Virus record (IMG/VR): IMGVR_UViG_2529292910_000010 | Coordinates: 1 to 41,736 of that record | DNA: 41,736 nucleotides | Reading direction: 5' to 3' (one strand) | Origin: a virus | Lineage: Duplodnaviria; Heunggongvirae; Uroviricota; Caudoviricetes | Shown here: one piece after another, positions 18,353-32,830 of the stretch | Position numbering within the stretch: the stretch's first letter is position 1 | How the letters are laid out: every line of letters begins with the position of its first letter | The notes under the pieces: model-generated | Told to the model about the DNA's origin: nothing | Database searches by the model: none | The model's input: only the letters and a program-made list of their open reading frames with translations | Program-made: the position numbers and the translations under genes

Positions 18353-18820
18353 TTATTTCAGGCACTGAGTGCGGATATAGTCCTGTGCCCCTTCCAGTTG
18401 CTTCTGCATCGTCATCAGCCGCTCTCTGAGGGTGAAATAATCCCGTGTAACGGTGTCTGCCAGTTGGGGGCCGGTTGCATTATCCACGCGGGCGGTGCCG
18501 GTGGCTTCACGCACGGGACCTGGACAGGTGGCGTTGATCCGCAGGCTGCGGTGACCAGCGGCAACGTCAGCGCGAAGAGTTTCATTTTCAGCTCTCGCAT
18601 CGGCTAATTCCCTCGAGTATCTGGCATCAAGTGCAGCAACATCACGCTGGCGCTGCTGCATATCAGTAATGGTTGCATTTGCCAGCTCCAGCTCACTGAC
18701 TTTTTTATCGCGCTGCTCTTTGTAGGTTATGGCGTTATCACGGTAATGATTCAGCCCCAGACTAAGCGCACCACAGGCCACCAGCAGGGCAATGATGACC
18801 ACGCACAGTACGCGGTTCAT
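18353..18820 (-). CDS. Rz: i-spanin Rz
   Basis: 155 aa, N-terminal TM helix then coiled-coil periplasmic domain. Confidence 0.85.
   Translation of the reverse strand: MNRVLCVVIIALLVACGALSLGLNHYRDNAITYKEQRDKKVSELELANATITDMQQRQRDVAALDARYSRELADARAENETLRADVAAGHRSLRINATCPGPVREATGTARVDNATGPQLADTVTRDYFTLRERLMTMQKQLEGAQDYIRTQCLK
18415..18600 (-). CDS. Rz1: o-spanin Rz1 (lipoprotein embedded in Rz in another frame)
   Basis: 61 aa with signal peptide and lipobox LVTAAC, Pro-rich mature part, fully inside Rz. Confidence 0.75.
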   Translation of the reverse strand: MRELKMKLFALTLPLVTAACGSTPPVQVPCVKPPAPPAWIMQPAPNWQTPLHGIISPSESG

Positions 18821-18999
18821 TTCACCACCAGCGTATCTGACCGATGAAATAACCGGAGGCCATAATCACAAACACCAGCCAGATAAGAATGAACTTCCAG
18901 GTGGATAATTTTTCAGCCATCACTCGAATCTCCCGAATCAGTTTGCTAAAATCAAACACACTTTCTCCTTTGACTTTTCCAGAGTCAGGAAACACAAAA

Positions 19000-19031
19000 C
19001 CCCGCTTGCAGCCAACAAACGGGGTTTTTAC
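19000..19031. terminator. hairpin with T-runs on both strands between endolysin and Rz
   Basis: 9-bp stem ccccgcttg/caaacgggg (one mismatch), 7-nt loop, tttttactttt downstream on plus strand and U-rich flank on minus. Confidence 0.5.
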
Positions 19032-19118
19032 TTTTATTCACTTAGTTTTTGTCAGTTCGCAGGATTTCGTGTTATCCGCCCGCGTGGCCATACCTTATTT
19101 TTCAGCAAAATATTCTGC

Positions 19119-19652
19119 TTATCTGTCGATACCCCAGCACGCCAGCGCGCTCTCCTGGTCACGACGGGATACCTGACCGTAGCAGTTGTTTGAACGAATA
19201 CGGCAGTCTCTGCCACCGTCCTTAATCCACCAGCGAATCGCCTCACACGCTCCCCTGCGATCACCTGCATTAATTCGTTTATAAAACGTCGACGGAAAAC
19301 ACTTACCGGGGCCAATGTTGTACGGACAGAATGACGCGATCCCCGCTTTCTGGGGTTCACTCAATGGCACTCTGATGTTTTTCTCCACCCATGCCAGCGC
19401 CTTATCACGCTCAATGGCGTTAACCCGGTCGCATTTTTCCTTCGACAACTTCATGCCCGGGACGACAGGTTTACTATCCACCAGGATGGCACCGCGGCAG
19501 ATGGTCCAGATACCCGCGCCATCACGGTATGCCGTGGTGTGGTTACCTTCCTTTTCATCCAGAAACTGGTCGAGGATTTCAGGCGCAGGCGCACCTGCGG
19601 CAATCAGCGCCAGAACGGCAGCCGACAGGCCGTATTTGATTTTGGTGTTCAT
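19119..19652 (-). CDS. R: SAR endolysin (lysozyme R, phage 21 type)
   Basis: 177 aa; N-terminal signal-anchor-release segment KYGLSAAVLALIAAGA then lysozyme-like domain. Confidence 0.9.
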   Translation of the reverse strand: MNTKIKYGLSAAVLALIAAGAPAPEILDQFLDEKEGNHTTAYRDGAGIWTICRGAILVDSKPVVPGMKLSKEKCDRVNAIERDKALAWVEKNIRVPLSEPQKAGIASFCPYNIGPGKCFPSTFYKRINAGDRRGACEAIRWWIKDGGRDCRIRSNNCYGQVSRRDQESALACWGIDR

Positions 19653-19702: not shown

Positions 19703-20047
19703 TCAGGCCAGCGGTGGAGTCTTCAGAGAACCAGTAATTATTCCCGGTAGTTTTCCTCTGTAGGTTATCAACACATCCTGCGCCTCTAAAATTACGGGGC
19801 GCTTTTCCGGCAACGGACCATCCCCTTCACATAACCCGGCAGCAACATCCATGAAAAACTGCTTCGCCTGCTTTTTCGCCTCAGCTTCGTAAAACTCCAG
19901 CGTGGCATCTTCAGTACGGTCAAGACTAATCGCCACATCTGGCAACAACAGTGACGGATACCCACCAATTTCCAGTGCCACAGTAACAGTAATCTTATTC
20001 GGGTAATTATTTATCCCTTTAACAACCAGTTCGTATTTTTTCTTCAT
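19703..20047 (-). CDS. hypothetical protein inside the lysis cassette (between holin and endolysin)
   Basis: 114-aa ORF tightly packed between S and R; no family recognised. Confidence 0.5.
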   Translation of the reverse strand: MKKKYELVVKGINNYPNKITVTVALEIGGYPSLLLPDVAISLDRTEDATLEFYEAEAKKQAKQFFMDVAAGLCEGDGPLPEKRPVILEAQDVLITYRGKLPGIITGSLKTPPLA

Positions 20048-20967: not shown

Positions 20968-22929
20968 TCATGCCGCGGCATCCGCGTTGTTCACTTCCAC
21001 CTTCACACTGTCAATCAGCAGCGTATATGTCGCCGCCTTTGATATGCCTGTCAGTTGCAGTTTGTCCGCCGCCCCTGATGCCGGAGATTTCACCAGTGTG
21101 AACGGCGTCCCCCGTTTCTCATCCAGTACCGGCGTCACCTGAATGCTGTTGTTTCCGGCAAACTCAAAAGCCAGTGTGTGCCATCCGTTATCAAAGACCC
21201 CGAACGTATCCAGCTTCGCATTCGGCTTCTTGTGGTACATCGCGTTCAGGTTCGTCGCATCCGTCTGCAGGAAGAAGGACATCAGCATGTCGTTGCCTTC
21301 CTCTGCCAGCGTCACTCCCTCCGGCAGGGACGACAACTGCCAGTAAATGCCCAGGGCAAACCGATTCGGCACCAGTGAACCCGGCAACTTAAACCGTACG
21401 CTCACACGTCCCCCCTTCTTCAGTAACTCCACTCCCTGTCCGGCTGCATCATGCTCCAGAAACCAGATGTGGTTTTCCGGTTTATTCAGTTGCAGGGCCT
21501 TACCTCCCGTAGCCCCCGCATCACTGACCACCGCTTCAGCAATGTTTTTGTTAACATTGTCTCCGCTCGCCGGTTTGTGATAATAGCGCCAGCCCTGTGA
21601 TGCCAGGTCTTCGCCGGACGCCAGCAGACTCATCAGGGTTCGGTTACTGACCGGGGCTTCCGGCTCTCTCTCCGTACCTTCACCGGAAGGTCCGGTGGGC
21701 TTCACCGTATCAGGCTGTTTTCCGGTAATGAATTCAGCGGTTCTCCCGGCATGCACAAGAATCGCCGTTGCCAGACGGTCGGAAATAATCCCACGACGTG
21801 CCCATGATCCAAAATGCGTTTTACGGTCGGCCGTCGTCCAGGTTTTGGCGTCCGTTCGACCACCGGCTCCGTAATACCCAATATCCGCAACATCCGGATC
21901 TTCTGACGGCTCGTTGGTACCCACATTTCGCCCGTTTTCATCCGTCATAAACGGCACAAAGAAGATTTTTTTTGCGGATTTCGTCTTGTATGCACCATAC
22001 ACCGCATCGTATTGCGAAGAATAAGTCTGCTTCCAGTAGTAGGTCGTGTCGCCACAAATCCAGGGAACCGATGACGGAGAGCCCCCGAGACACTGACCTC
22101 CGGATTCCGACAGGTCAGAACGATATTTTTCCACCATGGAATCAAACAGCCCCGGCTGAGTGGCGTATGCACCCTGTTTCAAATCAAACTCGCCCTGCAT
22201 CCAGACCACTGCAAGCAGAATATTTTTAGGGTTAGCCTTCAGTGCGGCCTGAGTACGGGTAAGCAGGTCCTTGTACAGTGGCTTATCTACACCCCAGCGT
22301 GCCGAGGTCTCGCTTGCGCCGGTGGATTCGCTGAAGGTACCTTCATCGCCCGCCAAAAATGCAGAACCACCACGGCAGCACGGAACCAGAAGAATACCGG
22401 CATTCGCCGGAATAAACGGCAACAATTTCTTCGCGATATGTAATCCCTGCCCCACGCATCCATACTGAGCTGCGCTAGCTTTCGGGTGTGAAAACTTACT
22501 CAAATCCTGAACATCATGCAGGCAGTGGTCCGCAGGAATAATGTCATTGTAGTTACAGGACGCACCACCCGGCGTGACAGTGCTGCGACGCGCCAGCTGT
22601 TTAATACGCGGGTCCGGACGGTCATATGTCTCCGGCAGCGGAAGCCCTTCACCATACGCCATACCGTTTGACTGCCCGGCCAGGGCAACAACAAAGTAAT
22701 ACTCCGGGTTGCTGGTGGTGCTGATAACTGCGCCTTCTCCATCCGACGGCTTCACCACCACAGGTGTGGTGACATCACCTTCCGCCGCAATGGCCTGCAT
22801 CAGGGTATAAGGCGTGATGGCCACCGGACTGCCAAATGGCTGCCACCCCTCCTTCAGTTTTTGTGTCAGTCGCTCCGCAAGGTCTGACGGCGACGCCGCC
22901 CTGACCACGTCATAGTGTTTAAATGCCAT
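20968..22929 (-). CDS. nanS: prophage 9-O-acetylneuraminic acid esterase NanS-p-like (DUF1737 N-terminus plus SGNH/SASA esterase plus C-terminal domain)
   Basis: 653 aa beginning MAFKHYDVVRAASPSDLAERLTQKLKEGWQPFGSPV; size, N-terminus and position (between tRNA genes and holin) match the Stx-phage NanS-p/YjhS-like gene as recalled. Confidence 0.8.
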   Translation of the reverse strand: MAFKHYDVVRAASPSDLAERLTQKLKEGWQPFGSPVAITPYTLMQAIAAEGDVTTPVVVKPSDGEGAVISTTSNPEYYFVVALAGQSNGMAYGEGLPLPETYDRPDPRIKQLARRSTVTPGGASCNYNDIIPADHCLHDVQDLSKFSHPKASAAQYGCVGQGLHIAKKLLPFIPANAGILLVPCCRGGSAFLAGDEGTFSESTGASETSARWGVDKPLYKDLLTRTQAALKANPKNILLAVVWMQGEFDLKQGAYATQPGLFDSMVEKYRSDLSESGGQCLGGSPSSVPWICGDTTYYWKQTYSSQYDAVYGAYKTKSAKKIFFVPFMTDENGRNVGTNEPSEDPDVADIGYYGAGGRTDAKTWTTADRKTHFGSWARRGIISDRLATAILVHAGRTAEFITGKQPDTVKPTGPSGEGTEREPEAPVSNRTLMSLLASGEDLASQGWRYYHKPASGDNVNKNIAEAVVSDAGATGGKALQLNKPENHIWFLEHDAAGQGVELLKKGGRVSVRFKLPGSLVPNRFALGIYWQLSSLPEGVTLAEEGNDMLMSFFLQTDATNLNAMYHKKPNAKLDTFGVFDNGWHTLAFEFAGNNSIQVTPVLDEKRGTPFTLVKSPASGAADKLQLTGISKAATYTLLIDSVKVEVNNADAAA

Positions 22930-23378
22930 GAATCCTCCCGGCCTGGATAATATTGTGAGTAAAATGAGGAGCGGGCTGAAGTCCGGAAGTTACAGGACAA
23001 TGGCAGAAGATAGACAACAGCCCGCAATACGAAAAAGGCCGCGCTATTGCGCAGAGTGATTACTGTCGGATATTATTCGCCAGCTGAAATATTACTTCAC
23101 GTTTTGTTGTTTATTCCTTGCCGCCCGCGTCTCCCTGCGCGGGCTTTTTTTGTCCATAAGAAAGCCCCTCCGGAGAGGGGCTGGAGAGTGGCACTATGTG
23201 CCATTGCATGGTGCCGGGTGCCTCCCGGTGAATTCAGTACCAGCACCTGAATCCGCGATTATCCCATATACCTACTCGCTGATTGCCCCTCCGCACAGGG
23301 GGATTCACCATGCCAGTTTCTTTTAACAAACTCCCCGCAAACCAGACAACAGTCAACCGCCTGAATTGTGAGACATTT

Positions 23379-23402
23379 AAAAAAAAGCCCGCAAAAGCGA
23401 GC
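23379..23402 (-). terminator. intrinsic terminator downstream of the tRNA cluster
   Basis: minus strand gctcgc-tttt-gcgggc hairpin followed by U8. Confidence 0.6.
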
Positions 23403-23417
23403 CAGGGAAAATAAGTG

Positions 23418-23494
23418 TGGCGCGTTCTACTGTATTCGAACCAGTGACCGATTGCTTAGAAGGCAATTGCTCTGTCCGGCTGAGCTAACAACGC
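23418..23494 (-). tRNA. tRNA-Arg (anticodon UCU)
   Basis: reverse complement GCGTTGTTAGCTCAGCCGGACAGAGCAATTGCCTTCTAAGCAATCGGTCACTGGTTCGAATCCAGTAGAACGCGCCA; cloverleaf with anticodon loop CTTCTAA, T-loop TTCGAAT, encoded CCA. Confidence 0.85.
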
Positions 23495-23508
23495 AGGATA
23501 CAGATAAT

Positions 23509-31467: not shown

Positions 31468-31688
31468 GCTGCACCTCCGAGATGCTTCATGTTTTTTCCG
31501 GAGCAAAAGGCTATAAGCGGCATACTGATGCGGTAATTACGGCCCAGCGGTTCACAAATCACCTTCTGACATTCACGGTCAACCAGGCTAACACGTAGAA
31601 CATGCCCTGCAGGCGTGGTGTACCACTGACCCGGACGAGGACAACGGAAAGTATGATTGGTAAACCGTTTGAAAATATTCCGGATCAT
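31464..31688 (-). CDS. hypothetical protein (74 aa)
   Basis: ORF with ATGA start/stop overlaps to both neighbours. Confidence 0.4.
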   Translation of the reverse strand: MIRNIFKRFTNHTFRCPRPGQWYTTPAGHVLRVSLVDRECQKVICEPLGRNYRISMPLIAFCSGKNMKHLGGAA

Positions 31689-32830
31689 TTGCGCCCCCTT
31701 ACCTCTGAAGGGTTCAGCGACAAATTTATGAGACTGGCCAGTAGCGCCGCGTCGTTGATGCGGTCATACAGACTTACAGCCAGCGGGGATTCGGCTTTTG
31801 CCAACATGGGATAAAGCTGCTGCAGCCAGACCTGATGAATTGATGAAATGTAGGAATAGAGAACGCTGGCGTTATGTGCAACGTCGCTCAGTACAGAGGG
31901 ATTTGAAAGCTGTTTCTCCATCTGGTTAAAGGCATTGATGTATGCCTCTTTGAACCGGGCAGCACGTTTCCCCGTGAAGCCCATGGCAAGAAACGCAAAA
32001 CCGTCGCGGGTGATTTGGTAACAAGGGAGTTTGCGGCCTGTGCAATCGGTGTAATCACTGGGCTGAAAATTCAGCTCAGTGAATTCAACAGAGCACTCAA
32101 GCGTCTGGATTTTTTGAATAACGTTTTTGTGCTGCTTGCAGAAATATTCGGCAACGGCCAAAGAAGAGGTAACAGCCTTCCCATGGATAACATCAATTTT
32201 AGGGTGAGTTTGGGTAGGGGTGGTTGCCATAGTGACATCCTCATGTGCGAATTTTGAAAACTCACCACATGGGACGCCAATCACAGAGGTGGTGAGACGT
32301 ACAGGGTTGGCGTAACCGGTCGCACATGACCCCGGCGCATCTTTCGATGCCCCTGCACGCCCCACCATAATTTGGATGTGAGGAAACGTGCGCAAAAAAA
32401 CCGCTGAAGCGCGGTTATGCGCATGTGCGAATTTCAGGACGCCAATCCCGGCACCCGCTTTATAAGGTGCCTGAACAGTGTAACGTCCCGGAATTGCAGA
32501 ATCAATATGCTGGTGGTCCTTCACACTCAACAAAATCACGCCTGAATTTCCACAAAGGACTAAAGCACTCATGCGGGTAGTCTTTGCGAAGATAGATAAC
32601 GCGCTGTGTTTCTGGCTCCCAACGAATAACATGGACATAAAGCCCTCTTCCGTCACGAAACCAGCGGTTAAGTTCCTGCACAACTCGCCCCCCACAGTCA
32701 GGTAAAGTTCTCTGTGGTTACTTACAGCCAGGTGATTTGGTAATCTGCATTCATGCCGTAACAACAGGTGTTCAGCGACGCTGACCACCAGCTGTTGCGA
32801 CAAACGGTTATTTGCCGTTAAACTATTCAT
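31685..32830 (-). CDS. Rha-family phage regulatory protein with an unusual ~200-aa N-terminal extension
   Basis: residues ~201-300 (MATTPTQTHPKIDVIHGKAVTSSLAVAEYFCKQHKNVIQKI...YQITRDGFAFLAMGFTGKRAARFKEAYINAFNQMEKQL) look like the Rha domain; frame is open for 200 more codons upstream and the ATG at 32830 overlaps the upstream stop (ATGA). Confidence 0.6.
   Translation of the reverse strand: MNSLTANNRLSQQLVVSVAEHLLLRHECRLPNHLAVSNHRELYLTVGGELCRNLTAGFVTEEGFMSMLFVGSQKHSALSIFAKTTRMSALVLCGNSGVILLSVKDHQHIDSAIPGRYTVQAPYKAGAGIGVLKFAHAHNRASAVFLRTFPHIQIMVGRAGASKDAPGSCATGYANPVRLTTSVIGVPCGEFSKFAHEDVTMATTPTQTHPKIDVIHGKAVTSSLAVAEYFCKQHKNVIQKIQTLECSVEFTELNFQPSDYTDCTGRKLPCYQITRDGFAFLAMGFTGKRAARFKEAYINAFNQMEKQLSNPSVLSDVAHNASVLYSYISSIHQVWLQQLYPMLAKAESPLAVSLYDRINDAALLASLINLSLNPSEVRGRK

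What the first reader, a model, noticed from the sequence alone, without database searches (positions are those of the whole stretch)
18822..19118. Extra 32-codon membrane-peptide ORF and a terminator hairpin inside the lysis cassette
Between the endolysin stop (19119) and the Rz start (18820) lie ~300 bp, unusual for a 21-type cassette. It contains a hairpin with T-runs on both strands (19000-19031) and a minus-strand ORF at 18822..18920 (MAEKLSTWKFILIWLVFVIMASGYFIGQIRWW) with SD ggag, ending 1 nt before the Rz ATG. This could be an additional lysis-timing factor or a remnant; the terminator would attenuate Rz/Rz1 expression.
Basis: seen in the sequence. Interest (0 to 1): 0.35.

Follow-up and report, generated by a model that had tools for sequence, protein, structure and literature searches.

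The report
Antisense-guarded small membrane-protein cassette in phage lysis genes
The "extra ORF plus hairpin" between the endolysin and Rz genes is a real, conserved, mobile mini-cassette: a 45-residue membrane protein gene that travels with its own RNA control leader and probably an antisense RNA, resembling a type I toxin-antitoxin unit and not described in the papers searched.

Summary
Both observed features are real. The conserved start is the GTG at 18959, giving 45 aa, not the 32 aa read from the ATG at 18920. The gene is under purifying selection (dN/dS about 0.1) and matches PHROG 6632, function unknown.

The hairpin (19028-18996) belongs to the ORF, not to R or Rz. Hairpin, a second hairpin over the SD, the start codon and the ORF move together as a ~215-bp unit. 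The unit sits between endolysin and i-spanin in lysis cassettes with at least four holin/endolysin combinations. It also sits in tail, baseplate and head operons and next to type II TA genes.

On the opposite strand, codons 3-5 read as an extended -10 (TGCTAnnnT). It is kept in every member examined, including ~40%-identical GC-rich metagenomic ones. A transcript from it would cross the start codon and SD and stop at the same bidirectional terminator (~78 nt).

Best reading: a type I TA-like, antisense-guarded late gene, silent in the lysogen and expressed only by Q-antiterminated transcription. The protein's role (membrane depolarisation, lysis timing?) is inferred. Attenuation of Rz by the terminator is unlikely.

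The parts
19119..19652 (-). Endolysin (R21-like lysozyme, 177 aa); upstream neighbour, not part of the cassette
   Evidence: ORF list; PF00959 and PHROG 7
19039..19118 (-). 3' flank that travels with the endolysin. It is shared by cassettes that carry other cargo after the hairpin and is absent from the tail and baseplate copies.
   Evidence: Partial matches covering query 1-171/198; alignments
18990..19038 (.). Left end of the mobile cassette: a bidirectional intrinsic terminator. A-tract 19038-19029, stem-loop 19028-18996, T-tract 18999-18990.
   Evidence: covariation; present upstream of every family member examined
18964..18992 (-). Second hairpin that buries the SD. Outer stem UUUCCU (18992-18987) pairs with AGGAGA (18969-18964); inner stem GACU (18986-18983) pairs with AGUC (18975-18972).
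   Evidence: Folds. The inner stem changes on both sides between lineages (TGACT/AGTCA, GCCTT/AAGGC, CCTTG/CAAGG, CCTG/CAGG, CGTTA/TAACG, CCTTCTG/CAGAAGG, CCTAT/ATAGG). The stems were read from individual folds, so the evidence is descriptive.
18965..18970 (-). Shine-Dalgarno AAGGAG for the GTG start
   Evidence: SD (GGAG/GAGG) conserved in all aligned relatives
18822..18959 (-). 45-codon gene (GTG 18959; stop TGA 18824-18822). N-terminal amphipathic helix (residues 4-17), kink, transmembrane helix (20-44), C-terminal RWW. PHROG 6632.
18918..18934 (-). This is codon 14, an invariant Met, and a possible second start giving a 32-aa form.
   Evidence: some gene callers annotate 32-aa forms (P0022, P0023)
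18944..18952 (+). Extended -10 promoter element TGCTAAAAT, antisense to codons 3-6 of the gene
   Evidence: Best -10 score on either strand in all 11 independently retrieved 282-nt segments. TGCTAnnnT is kept in all 14 lineages; only hexamer positions 3-5 vary.
18958..19035 (+). Predicted cis-antisense RNA (~78 nt). Its 5' tail is complementary to the start codon and SD; it then has a small stem-loop, the terminator hairpin and a U-run.
   Evidence: Inferred from the promoter and terminator positions; fold -21.9 kcal/mol, z -4.4. No transcript data available.
18353..18820 (-). Rz i-spanin (with Rz1 o-spanin embedded at 18415-18600). Its ATG lies 1 nt after the small gene's stop (TGAaATG).
26435..26812 (-). 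Q antiterminator gene upstream of the same late operon
   Evidence: PF06530, E 5e-52

Best explanation
Window 19038-18822 is one copy of a compact, mobile gene cassette that has no sense promoter and has inserted between the endolysin and Rz genes.

Shown:
- It encodes a real 45-aa single-pass inner-membrane protein: a cytoplasmic amphipathic helix, a TM helix and a C-terminal RWW.
- The gene always travels with a 5' leader made of a bidirectional intrinsic terminator followed by a hairpin that occludes the SD.
- The first ~60 nt of the ORF are constrained at the nucleotide level.
- A sigma-70 extended -10 element (TGCTAnnnT) on the opposite strand, at codons 3-5, is invariant across the family.

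Inferred:
- That promoter makes a ~78-nt cis-antisense RNA. It starts in the start codon, is fully complementary to the SD, and ends at the same terminator.
- In the lysogen, the terminator stops stray sense transcription, and the SD hairpin plus the antisense RNA block translation of whatever leaks through.
- After induction, Q-modified RNA polymerase reads through the terminator. Late mRNA then outruns the antisense RNA and the protein is made late.

This is the logic of a type I toxin-antitoxin pair (SymE/SymR-like geometry; compare P22 sar/ant). The three-layer off-switch suggests the protein harms a growing cell. The most likely action is on the energised inner membrane, which would advance holin triggering or help lysis. 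That last step is the weakest.
For: A coding gene. dN/dS is 0.050/0.63 (window vs L007), 0.092/1.08 (vs L013) and 0.071/0.63 (L224 vs L226). The gene matches PHROG 6632 over its full length. The family has 48 representatives at 50% identity with a conserved motif SK(L/I)(I/V)rE.R.M.e.L..W(K/R)F. AlphaFold gives helix 4-17, a kink, and helix 20-44 (pLDDT 82). The N-terminal hydrophobic moment is 0.47 and the TM segment has mean KD 2.0.

An accessory, mobile unit.
- It is absent from K-12 Qin, where rrrQ and rzpQ overlap.
- It is absent from SEN34's own lysis genes, although SEN34 carries it in its baseplate operon.
- Its GC is 0.435 against 0.55 in the flanking genes.
- It occurs 1 nt upstream of PF03245 and DUF2514 i-spanins, next to S21-type, HP1-type and holin_8 holins and to lysozyme or GH19 endolysins. 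In Enterobacter it follows holin_8/holin_3_7 genes and a GH19 endolysin, 22 nt before an unassigned ORF.
- It also occurs in a lambda I/J tail gap, in spike/W baseplate gaps, before a head connector and beside type II TA genes.
- Homology starts at the A-tract and ends at the stop codon.

The leader. The SD hairpin, with stems changed on both sides, is present in most of the 16 leaders folded, though not evident in L240 and differently placed in L239. The same leader precedes unrelated small TM ORFs and forms tandem arrays.

The antisense promoter.
- dS in codons 2-21 has a median of 0.36, while codons 22-45 are saturated. The adjacent spacer diverges freely.
- The site is the top -10 score on both strands in 11 of 11 segments retrieved by protein identity (10) or blastn (L007).
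- Variants are TAAAAT, TAATAT, TAAGAT, TAGAAT and TAATGT. T1, A2, T6 and the TG are invariant, including in GC-rich ~40%-identical members.
- The Ser codon in the motif is AGC in 14 of 14 lineages, while other Ser codons in these ORFs are mostly TCN. Where the next residue is Arg it is AGR, which preserves the TG; most other Arg codons are CGN.
- Other cargo families also carry antisense TATAGT/TATACT or TAGACT/TAAAAT at their 5' ends.

Q context. A Q gene is present in the window, in L013-16, in SPN3UB and in SEN34.

Precedent. The prophage type I TA hokW-sokW assists Sp5 lysis and phage release (PMC8621323).
Against: No transcript data were available. The antisense RNA, its start site and its effect are predictions.
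- The -35 is poor (TCGAAT, 3 of 6), so activity would rest on the extended -10.
- Part of the 5' nucleotide conservation could serve other ends, such as the internal SD and ATG or mRNA structure.
- The N-terminal peptide is itself highly conserved, which limits codon freedom.
- The SD hairpin is only marginally more stable than shuffles. Part of its outer stem follows trivially from a U-rich terminator tail facing a purine-rich SD.
- G.U counts do not say which strand's hairpin is selected.
- Toxicity is unproven, and there is no hit to any TA, defence or holin model.
- Unlike classical type I toxins, the gene has no promoter of its own.
- Many sequences in the large alignment were retrieved with the conserved core as bait. 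Only the protein-retrieved sets are unbiased.
Confidence: 0.5

Rival explanations
1. Ordinary moron. The small membrane protein is a conventional accessory gene, for example for superinfection exclusion or another late membrane function. The hairpin is only an insulator or terminator that is co-inherited with it. The antisense -10-like motif is not a working promoter, and its conservation comes from the conserved N-terminal peptide and translation-initiation constraints.
For: It is extra DNA between genes that abut in relatives, has lower GC and occurs in many late-operon positions. The N-terminal peptide is strongly conserved. The -35 is weak. There are no transcript data.
Against: There is no sense promoter, and the terminator lies upstream rather than downstream, unlike the classic promoter-gene-terminator moron. 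The pattern T1, A2, T6 plus TG invariant with positions 3-5 variable is the sigma-70 signature. It is held through amino-acid changes (D/N/H, F/I/L/S) and in GC-rich genomes. The A-tract that gives the plus strand its U-run is conserved too.
Confidence: 0.25
2. The ORF is a dedicated lysis-timing factor of the 21-type cassette, and the hairpin is an internal terminator that lowers Rz/Rz1 expression.
For: The position between R and Rz. The stop-start arrangement TGAaATG suggests translational coupling to Rz. The same arrangement is kept in Salmonella and E. fergusonii. The hairpin is terminator-like in the sense direction.
Against: The hairpin-plus-ORF unit also sits in tail, baseplate and head operons with no spanin nearby. 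It accompanies at least four different holin/endolysin combinations and two i-spanin families. The late operon is under Q, and Q-modified polymerase ignores such terminators (established knowledge of lambdoid late transcription). Where checked, the phages carrying the cassette in essential structural operons have Q, so the terminator cannot be strongly polar during lytic growth.
Confidence: 0.15
3. Coupling uORF. The peptide is unimportant, and the ORF exists to deliver ribosomes to the Rz start after an insertion separated R from Rz.
For: The 1-nt stop-start spacing. The conserved 3' end TGGTGGTGA resembles an SD for the next gene.
Against: Purifying selection acts on the whole peptide. The family is conserved where the next gene starts 7-70 nt away or is unrelated. 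TAG-ending copies have no adjacent ATG.
Confidence: 0.05
4. A chance ORF or decaying remnant beside a leftover terminator.
For: Most annotation pipelines skip it.
Against: dN/dS is about 0.1. The reading frame is intact across genera and in metagenomes. PHROG 6632 matches it. The leader shows covariation.
Confidence: 0.02

Closest known systems
Type I toxin-antitoxin systems with a 5'-overlapping cis-antisense RNA (SymE/SymR geometry; Hok/Sok, including prophage hokW-sokW, PMC8621323)
   Same: A small gene is silenced by a short RNA made from the opposite strand, whose promoter lies in the first codons and which covers the SD and start codon. As in Hok-type toxins, the protein is a <60-aa single-pass membrane peptide. 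The mRNA has an SD-occluding structure. The setting is a prophage. hokW-sokW shows that such a pair can assist phage-mediated lysis.
   Different: There is no sequence similarity to any known toxin family. The toxin gene has no promoter of its own and depends on read-through of a terminator by antiterminated polymerase. The antisense RNA and the upstream operon share one bidirectional terminator. Toxicity and the RNA itself are unproven. The SymR geometry is recalled from my own knowledge, not tested here.
P22 sar RNA / ant (immI region)
   Same: A phage-encoded ~70-nt antisense RNA starts inside the 5' end of its target gene and covers the ribosome-binding site. The target gene is transcribed by read-through from an upstream gene (own knowledge).
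   Different: The target there is a cytoplasmic antirepressor, not a membrane peptide. There is no sequence relationship. The comparison rests on memory and was not tested.
Morons of lambdoid phages (Juhala/Hendrix sense)
   Same: An extra, lower-GC segment sits between genes that are adjacent in relatives, in the late operon, and spreads horizontally between unrelated phages.
   Different: Classic morons carry promoter-gene-terminator and are expressed from the prophage. Here the terminator is upstream, no sense promoter is detectable, and the only conserved promoter points backwards.
Holin/antiholin dual-start genes (lambda S105/S107, S21 68/71)
   Same: A small membrane protein in a lysis cassette with two conserved in-frame starts, each with an SD (GTG codon 1, ATG codon 14).
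   Different: It has one TMD and only five residues after it, so it lacks the charged C-terminal tail typical of holins. It is not tied to lysis cassettes. The window already has an S21-type holin (20267-20052). Use of the second start is untested.

Membership tests
Type I toxin-antitoxin system | Small (<60 aa) hydrophobic, membrane-targeted toxin ORF | tested here: met
   45 aa; TM segment residues 22-40 with mean KD 2.0; AlphaFold TM helix 20-44
Type I toxin-antitoxin system | Antisense RNA gene overlapping or adjacent to the toxin mRNA | tested here: inconclusive
   A conserved extended -10 on the opposite strand plus a bidirectional terminator predict a ~78-nt RNA. No transcript evidence; no Rfam family.
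Type I toxin-antitoxin system | Toxin mRNA structure that limits translation | tested here: inconclusive
   An SD-occluding hairpin with stems changed on both sides in most lineages. Stability is only about 1 sd below shuffles.
Type I toxin-antitoxin system | Over-expression is toxic and the RNA neutralises it | not testable with these tools
   Needs expression experiments
Type I toxin-antitoxin system | Homology to a described toxin family (Hok, Ldr, TisB, Ibs, ShoB, Zor, DinQ and others) | tested here: not met
   No Pfam, NCBIfam or PADLOC hit. No mention in Fozo 2010. If it is a type I system, it is a new family.
Lambdoid moron | Extra DNA between genes that are adjacent in related phages | tested here: met
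   rrrQ and rzpQ overlap in K-12 Qin. SEN34 endolysin and Rz overlap. R and Rz are contiguous in PhiR49_2.
Lambdoid moron | Own promoter upstream and terminator downstream of the gene | tested here: not met
   No conserved sense promoter. The terminator is upstream, and the next gene starts 1-70 nt after the stop.
Lambdoid moron | Base composition differing from the flanks | tested here: met
   GC 0.435 against 0.549 (R) and 0.556 (Rz)
Holin / antiholin | At least one TMD plus a charged, hydrophilic C-terminal domain | tested here: not met
   Only QIRWW follows the TMD. No holin Pfam or PHROG match.
Holin / antiholin | Obligate residence in lysis cassettes | tested here: not met
   Copies occur in tail, baseplate, head and TA-island contexts
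Holin / antiholin | Dual-start motif producing two products | tested here: inconclusive
   The codon 1 start is conserved (GTG, ATG or TTG). Met14 is invariant and in most members has an SD-like GAG(G) 5-9 nt upstream. L226 lacks the GGAG. Translation was not measured.
PHROG 6632 (function unknown) | Full-length profile match | tested here: met
   E 1.2e-29, residues 1-45 on profile positions 1-45 of 45

The most novel reading that the evidence does not exclude
The cassette represents an unrecognised class of promoter-less small-gene cassettes. Its portable leader (bidirectional terminator, SD-occluding hairpin and an antisense promoter in the first codons) carries several unrelated single-pass membrane peptides. 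The cassettes spread among Q-antiterminated late operons and stack into arrays at the endolysin/spanin junction. Functionally it would be a new type I TA family whose toxin is licensed only by antitermination, and which tunes lysis timing by depolarising the membrane and so triggering the holin.
Probability: 0.3. Interest if true: 0.7.

Novelty: new variant of a known kind. Interest (0 to 1): 0.55.

Why it matters
Lysis cassettes of lambdoid and Shiga-toxin phages are treated as holin, endolysin and spanin, plus the occasional antirepressor gene. This unit is present in about one in six complete E. coli genomes and in H-19B and many Stx1/Stx2 phages, yet it is mostly unannotated.

If the antisense model holds, it adds a new type I TA-like family. 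It also adds a new regulatory idea: a toxin licensed by transcription antitermination rather than by its own promoter. And it offers a candidate modifier of lysis timing, and so of toxin and phage release in STEC.

The portable leader with exchangeable small membrane-protein cargo would also show how phages trade very small genes. Separately, the case shows that gene callers miss or mis-start this gene (32, 45 and 57-76-aa calls all exist).

Tried and rejected
- Rfam at gathering threshold on the whole window, and at E up to 10 on 18700-19300. Nothing was found at the locus. The best hit is a sub-threshold rimP-leader match on the plus strand, driven by the hairpin.
- The scan's plus-strand promoter-like site at 18837-18866 (CTGACC-18-CATAAT) was my first antisense candidate. 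It is not conserved in L007, L009 or L013 and was dropped.
- A window-specific stem AAAGUCAAA:UUUGAUUUU that encloses the SD and start codon is not conserved in other lineages.
- A sense promoter between the hairpin and the SD: none found, and none conserved.
- Pfam, NCBIfam, PADLOC and PDB sequence searches for the protein and for four other small cargo proteins: no hits.
- Literature. No paper holds WP_000459345, the peptide motifs, phrog_6632 or SEN34_23. The EHEC prophage sRNAs of Tree et al. 2014 lie at the PR' moron site, not here. The Stx-phage lysis-cassette survey (PMC8136144) and Fozo 2010 do not mention the gene.
- I looked for a copy in O157 Sakai so that published dRNA-seq could be used. 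Sp14 and Sp15 lack the 45-aa gene and carry other small TM ORFs before Rz.
- A second copy in the window: none (nhmmer and a WW-stop scan).
- G.U against A.C counts, to decide which strand's hairpin is selected: not decisive for the core helix (9 against 5).
It was rerun with permitted ones.

Full report
**What is in the window.** On the minus strand the lysis region reads as follows:
- S21-type holin (20267-20052)
- a DUF1327/YdfR-like ORF (20047-19703)
- a Phage_lysozyme endolysin (19652-19119)
- a 298-bp gap
- Rz (18820-18353), with Rz1 embedded (18600-18415)

A Q antiterminator gene lies upstream at 26435-26812. The window matches a prophage of E. coli FORC_069 at 100% over the 381-bp query.

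There is a 14-bp stem-loop at 19028-18996 with an A-tract before it and a T-tract after it. There is also a minus-strand ORF that ends 1 nt before the Rz ATG. Taken alone, the terminator-like pattern is not above chance for this region (4 found, 2.2 expected). The hairpin does fold far better than shuffles on both strands (z -4.1 and -4.4).

**Correcting the ORF.** Across relatives the conserved start is the GTG at 18959, 5 nt after AAGGAG, and it gives 45 aa.
- This form matches PHROG 6632 (function unknown) over its full length (E 1e-29).
- It is what PGAP annotates when it annotates anything (WP_000459345.1).
- Pairwise dN/dS is 0.050/0.63, 0.092/1.08 and 0.071/0.63 for independent pairs, so this is a translated gene and not a remnant.
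- AlphaFold on the family alignment gives an N-terminal helix (4-17), a kink at the conserved L-P/S, and a TM helix (20-44), with pLDDT 82.
- The N-terminal helix is amphipathic (muH 0.47), and the charge distribution mildly favours N-in.

The family is small. It has 48 representatives at 50% identity among 1.84 billion proteins, from Enterobacterales and from metagenomes. It has no Pfam, NCBIfam, PADLOC or PDB relative.

**It is accessory and mobile, and the hairpin belongs to it.**
- K-12 Qin has the same holin/YdfR/lysozyme order but rrrQ overlaps rzpQ. R and Rz are also contiguous in phage PhiR49_2.
- The 381-bp segment is nevertheless common. At least 80% of it is present in 871 of 5426 complete E. 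coli genomes and in 39 phage records, including H-19B, CP-1639 and many Stx1a, Stx2a and Stx2c phages. It usually carries no annotation.
- Relatives retrieved by protein identity sit in very different places:
  - 1 nt upstream of a PF03245 Rz, behind an HP1-type holin and a lysozyme, in Salmonella
  - 1 nt upstream of a DUF2514 i-spanin, behind a holin_8 and a GH19 endolysin, in E. fergusonii
  - after a GH19 endolysin in Enterobacter
  - between the lambda-like tail genes I and J in Citrobacter
  - between the baseplate spike and the W-like gene in Klebsiella, Salmonella and E. coli myoviruses, including phage SEN34 gene 23 and Rac-SA53 rac58
  - before a head connector gene
  - beside ParE, YafQ, HicB and YhaV modules
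- In every case homology begins at the A-tract and hairpin and ends at the stop codon. The unit is about 215 bp, and its GC is 0.435 against 0.55 in the flanks.
- The hairpin shows real covariation: 92% of cells are paired, 6 of 18 pairs change on both sides, and the covariation score is 0.28. Shuffles give 0.18 (0 of 500 reach the observed value) and slid structures give 0.06-0.13.

**A structured leader.** Between the terminator and the start codon lies a second, smaller hairpin whose 3' arm runs into the SD.
- In the window, UUUCCU (18992-18987) pairs with AGGAGA (18969-18964) around an inner GACU:AGUC stem.
- The inner stem differs on both sides between lineages: TGACT/AGTCA, GCCTT/AAGGC, CCTTG/CAAGG, CCTG/CAGG, CGTTA/TAACG, CCTTCTG/CAGAAGG and CCTAT/ATAGG.
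- I read these stems from individual folds, and their stability is only about one standard deviation better than shuffles. I treat this as descriptive support.
- The same leader also precedes unrelated small TM ORFs: MKESSNK...WVKWW in L013, the NYKRILLRLTMKNG... family in L005 and L229-233, and MDFRPLVDF...AAIRWW in L240.
- The units occur in tandem: two in L013, three leaders in L240, and an array of four small TM ORFs before Rz in L006.

**The antisense promoter.**
- Synonymous divergence is strongly suppressed in codons 2-21 (median dS 0.36; 0.08 for window vs L007). It is saturated in codons 22-45. The spacer just upstream diverges freely in the same sequence pairs. Recent shared ancestry therefore does not explain the pattern.
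- On the opposite strand, codons 3-6 read TGCTAAAAT (window 18944-18952), a sigma-70 extended -10.
- In all 11 independently retrieved 282-nt segments (ten by protein identity, L007 by blastn) it is the best -10 score on either strand.
- Across 14 lineages, including ~40%-identical members from GC-rich metagenomic contigs, the motif is TGCTA-nnn-T. The hexamers are TAAAAT, TAATAT, TAAGAT, TAGAAT and TAATGT. Only positions 3-5 vary, and these are the positions sigma-70 tolerates. The encoded residues meanwhile change (D/N/H; F/I/L/S).
- The Ser codon in the motif is AGC in 14 of 14 lineages, although other Ser codons in these ORFs are mostly TCN. Where the next residue is Arg it is AGA or AGG, which keeps the TG, while most other Arg codons are CGN.
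- The -35 is weak (TCGAAT), as is usual for extended -10 promoters.
- A transcript from this promoter would start at about 18958, inside the start codon. It would run across the SD (5'-ACACUUUCUCCUUUG...) and end at the plus-strand face of the same hairpin, near 19030-19035 (~78 nt).
- This accounts for four otherwise odd facts: the hairpin lies upstream of the gene, its A-tract is conserved, the cassette's left border is the terminator, and the first codons are frozen.
- The other cargo families carry comparable antisense hexamers at their 5' ends: TATAGT/TATACT, TAGACT and TAAAAT.

**Mechanism proposed.**
- Shown: the gene, the leader, the mobility and the conserved antisense -10.
- Inferred: in the lysogen the terminator stops stray sense transcription, and the SD hairpin plus the antisense RNA block translation. 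After induction, Q-modified polymerase reads through the terminator and the late message titrates the RNA.
- Where I could check, the cassette lies in an operon governed by a Q-type antiterminator (window; L013-16; SPN3UB; SEN34). This explains why a terminator is tolerated inside essential tail and baseplate operons.
- Such a tight off-state implies a product that is harmful to growing cells. A small depolarising membrane peptide made late would advance holin triggering. The type I pair hokW-sokW of prophage Sp5 is a precedent for helping lysis and phage release (PMC8621323). This last step is conjecture.
- The invariant internal Met14 with its SD-like sequence leaves open a second, 32-aa product that the antisense RNA would not cover.

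**Known or new.** I found no Rfam family at the locus, no curated protein family, and no paper in the library naming the protein, its motifs or its PHROG. The EHEC prophage sRNA survey, the Stx-phage lysis-cassette survey and the type I TA census do not describe it. It works like a type I TA or sar/ant-type antisense switch. It fails the homology test for every described toxin family and the promoter-gene-terminator test for a classic moron. I therefore file it as a new variant of a known kind.

**Limits.**
- No transcriptomic or functional data could be consulted.
- The big alignment was baited with the conserved core, so my arguments rest on the protein-retrieved loci.
- Which strand's structures are under selection cannot be decided from G.U counts.

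Noticed in passing
window 32285-32470 (-) and 31685-32830 (-): Rfam gathering-level hits to C4 antisense RNA (32285-32372) and isrK (32394-32470) lie directly upstream of an ORF with Rha and Ash domains. This looks like a P1 c4/ant-like or Gifsy IsrK-like antirepressor control module.
   Followed up: no
window 23152-23667 (-): STnc100 sRNA (140 bits) lies next to three tRNA genes, downstream of Q and upstream of the NanS-p-like esterase (20968-22929). This is the usual Stx-phage moron site, but no stx genes showed up among the ORFs examined.
   Followed up: no
window 25251-26411 (+) and 23696-24409 (-): Two plus-strand ORFs (a 237-aa DUF6731 protein and a 147-aa protein with no Pfam hit) sit in inverted orientation between Q and the late genes. 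An AraC-family regulator ORF sits inside the late region. Both are candidate defence or regulatory morons.
   Followed up: partly
window 19703-20047 (-): A DUF1327/YdfR-like ORF (114 aa) is wedged between holin and endolysin, as in K-12 Qin (ydfR). Its function is unknown, and it is a second non-canonical resident of this lysis cassette.
   Followed up: no
window 18889-19176 (+): This 95-aa plus-strand ORF crosses the hairpin and overlaps the small gene in antisense. It is annotated as a hypothetical protein in phage CP-1639 (EC_CP1639_38). The codon-position pattern of substitutions supports the minus-strand gene, so this call is probably spurious.
   Followed up: partly
L006:2540-3190; L005:2540-3045; L017:4749-4895; L100:26728-27054: The endolysin/Rz junction of other E. 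coli prophages, including Sakai Sp14 and Sp15 (ECs_2740, ECs_5740, ECs_5741), holds one to four other small single-TM ORFs. Their families include MSDKLIT..SGLLG..DISRALAFAIKWVAVG....AIRWW and a 44-aa paralogue ending AIKG. Several start within 1-2 nt of the preceding stop.
   Followed up: partly
L240:1400-1930; L013:2660-3140: Tandem cassettes occur. L240 has three successive leaders with two different cargo ORFs, both ending IRWW-stop. L013 has a 50-aa cargo (…WVKWW) cassette directly upstream of the 45-aa cassette. Each cassette ends TGGTGGTGAnATG or similar.
   Followed up: partly
L203:~1955: One copy has the start codon changed from GTG to GCG while the rest of the ORF is intact. Only the internal ATG (codon 14) is left as a start. 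This is either a pseudogene or evidence that the 32-aa form can be made.
   Followed up: no
L235:1418-4124; L236; L238:1001-1708: Distant family members lie among type II TA genes (ParE/TraY-like, YafQ/RelB, HicB, PrlF/YhaV) in prophage accessory regions. This association fits a TA-like nature.
   Followed up: no
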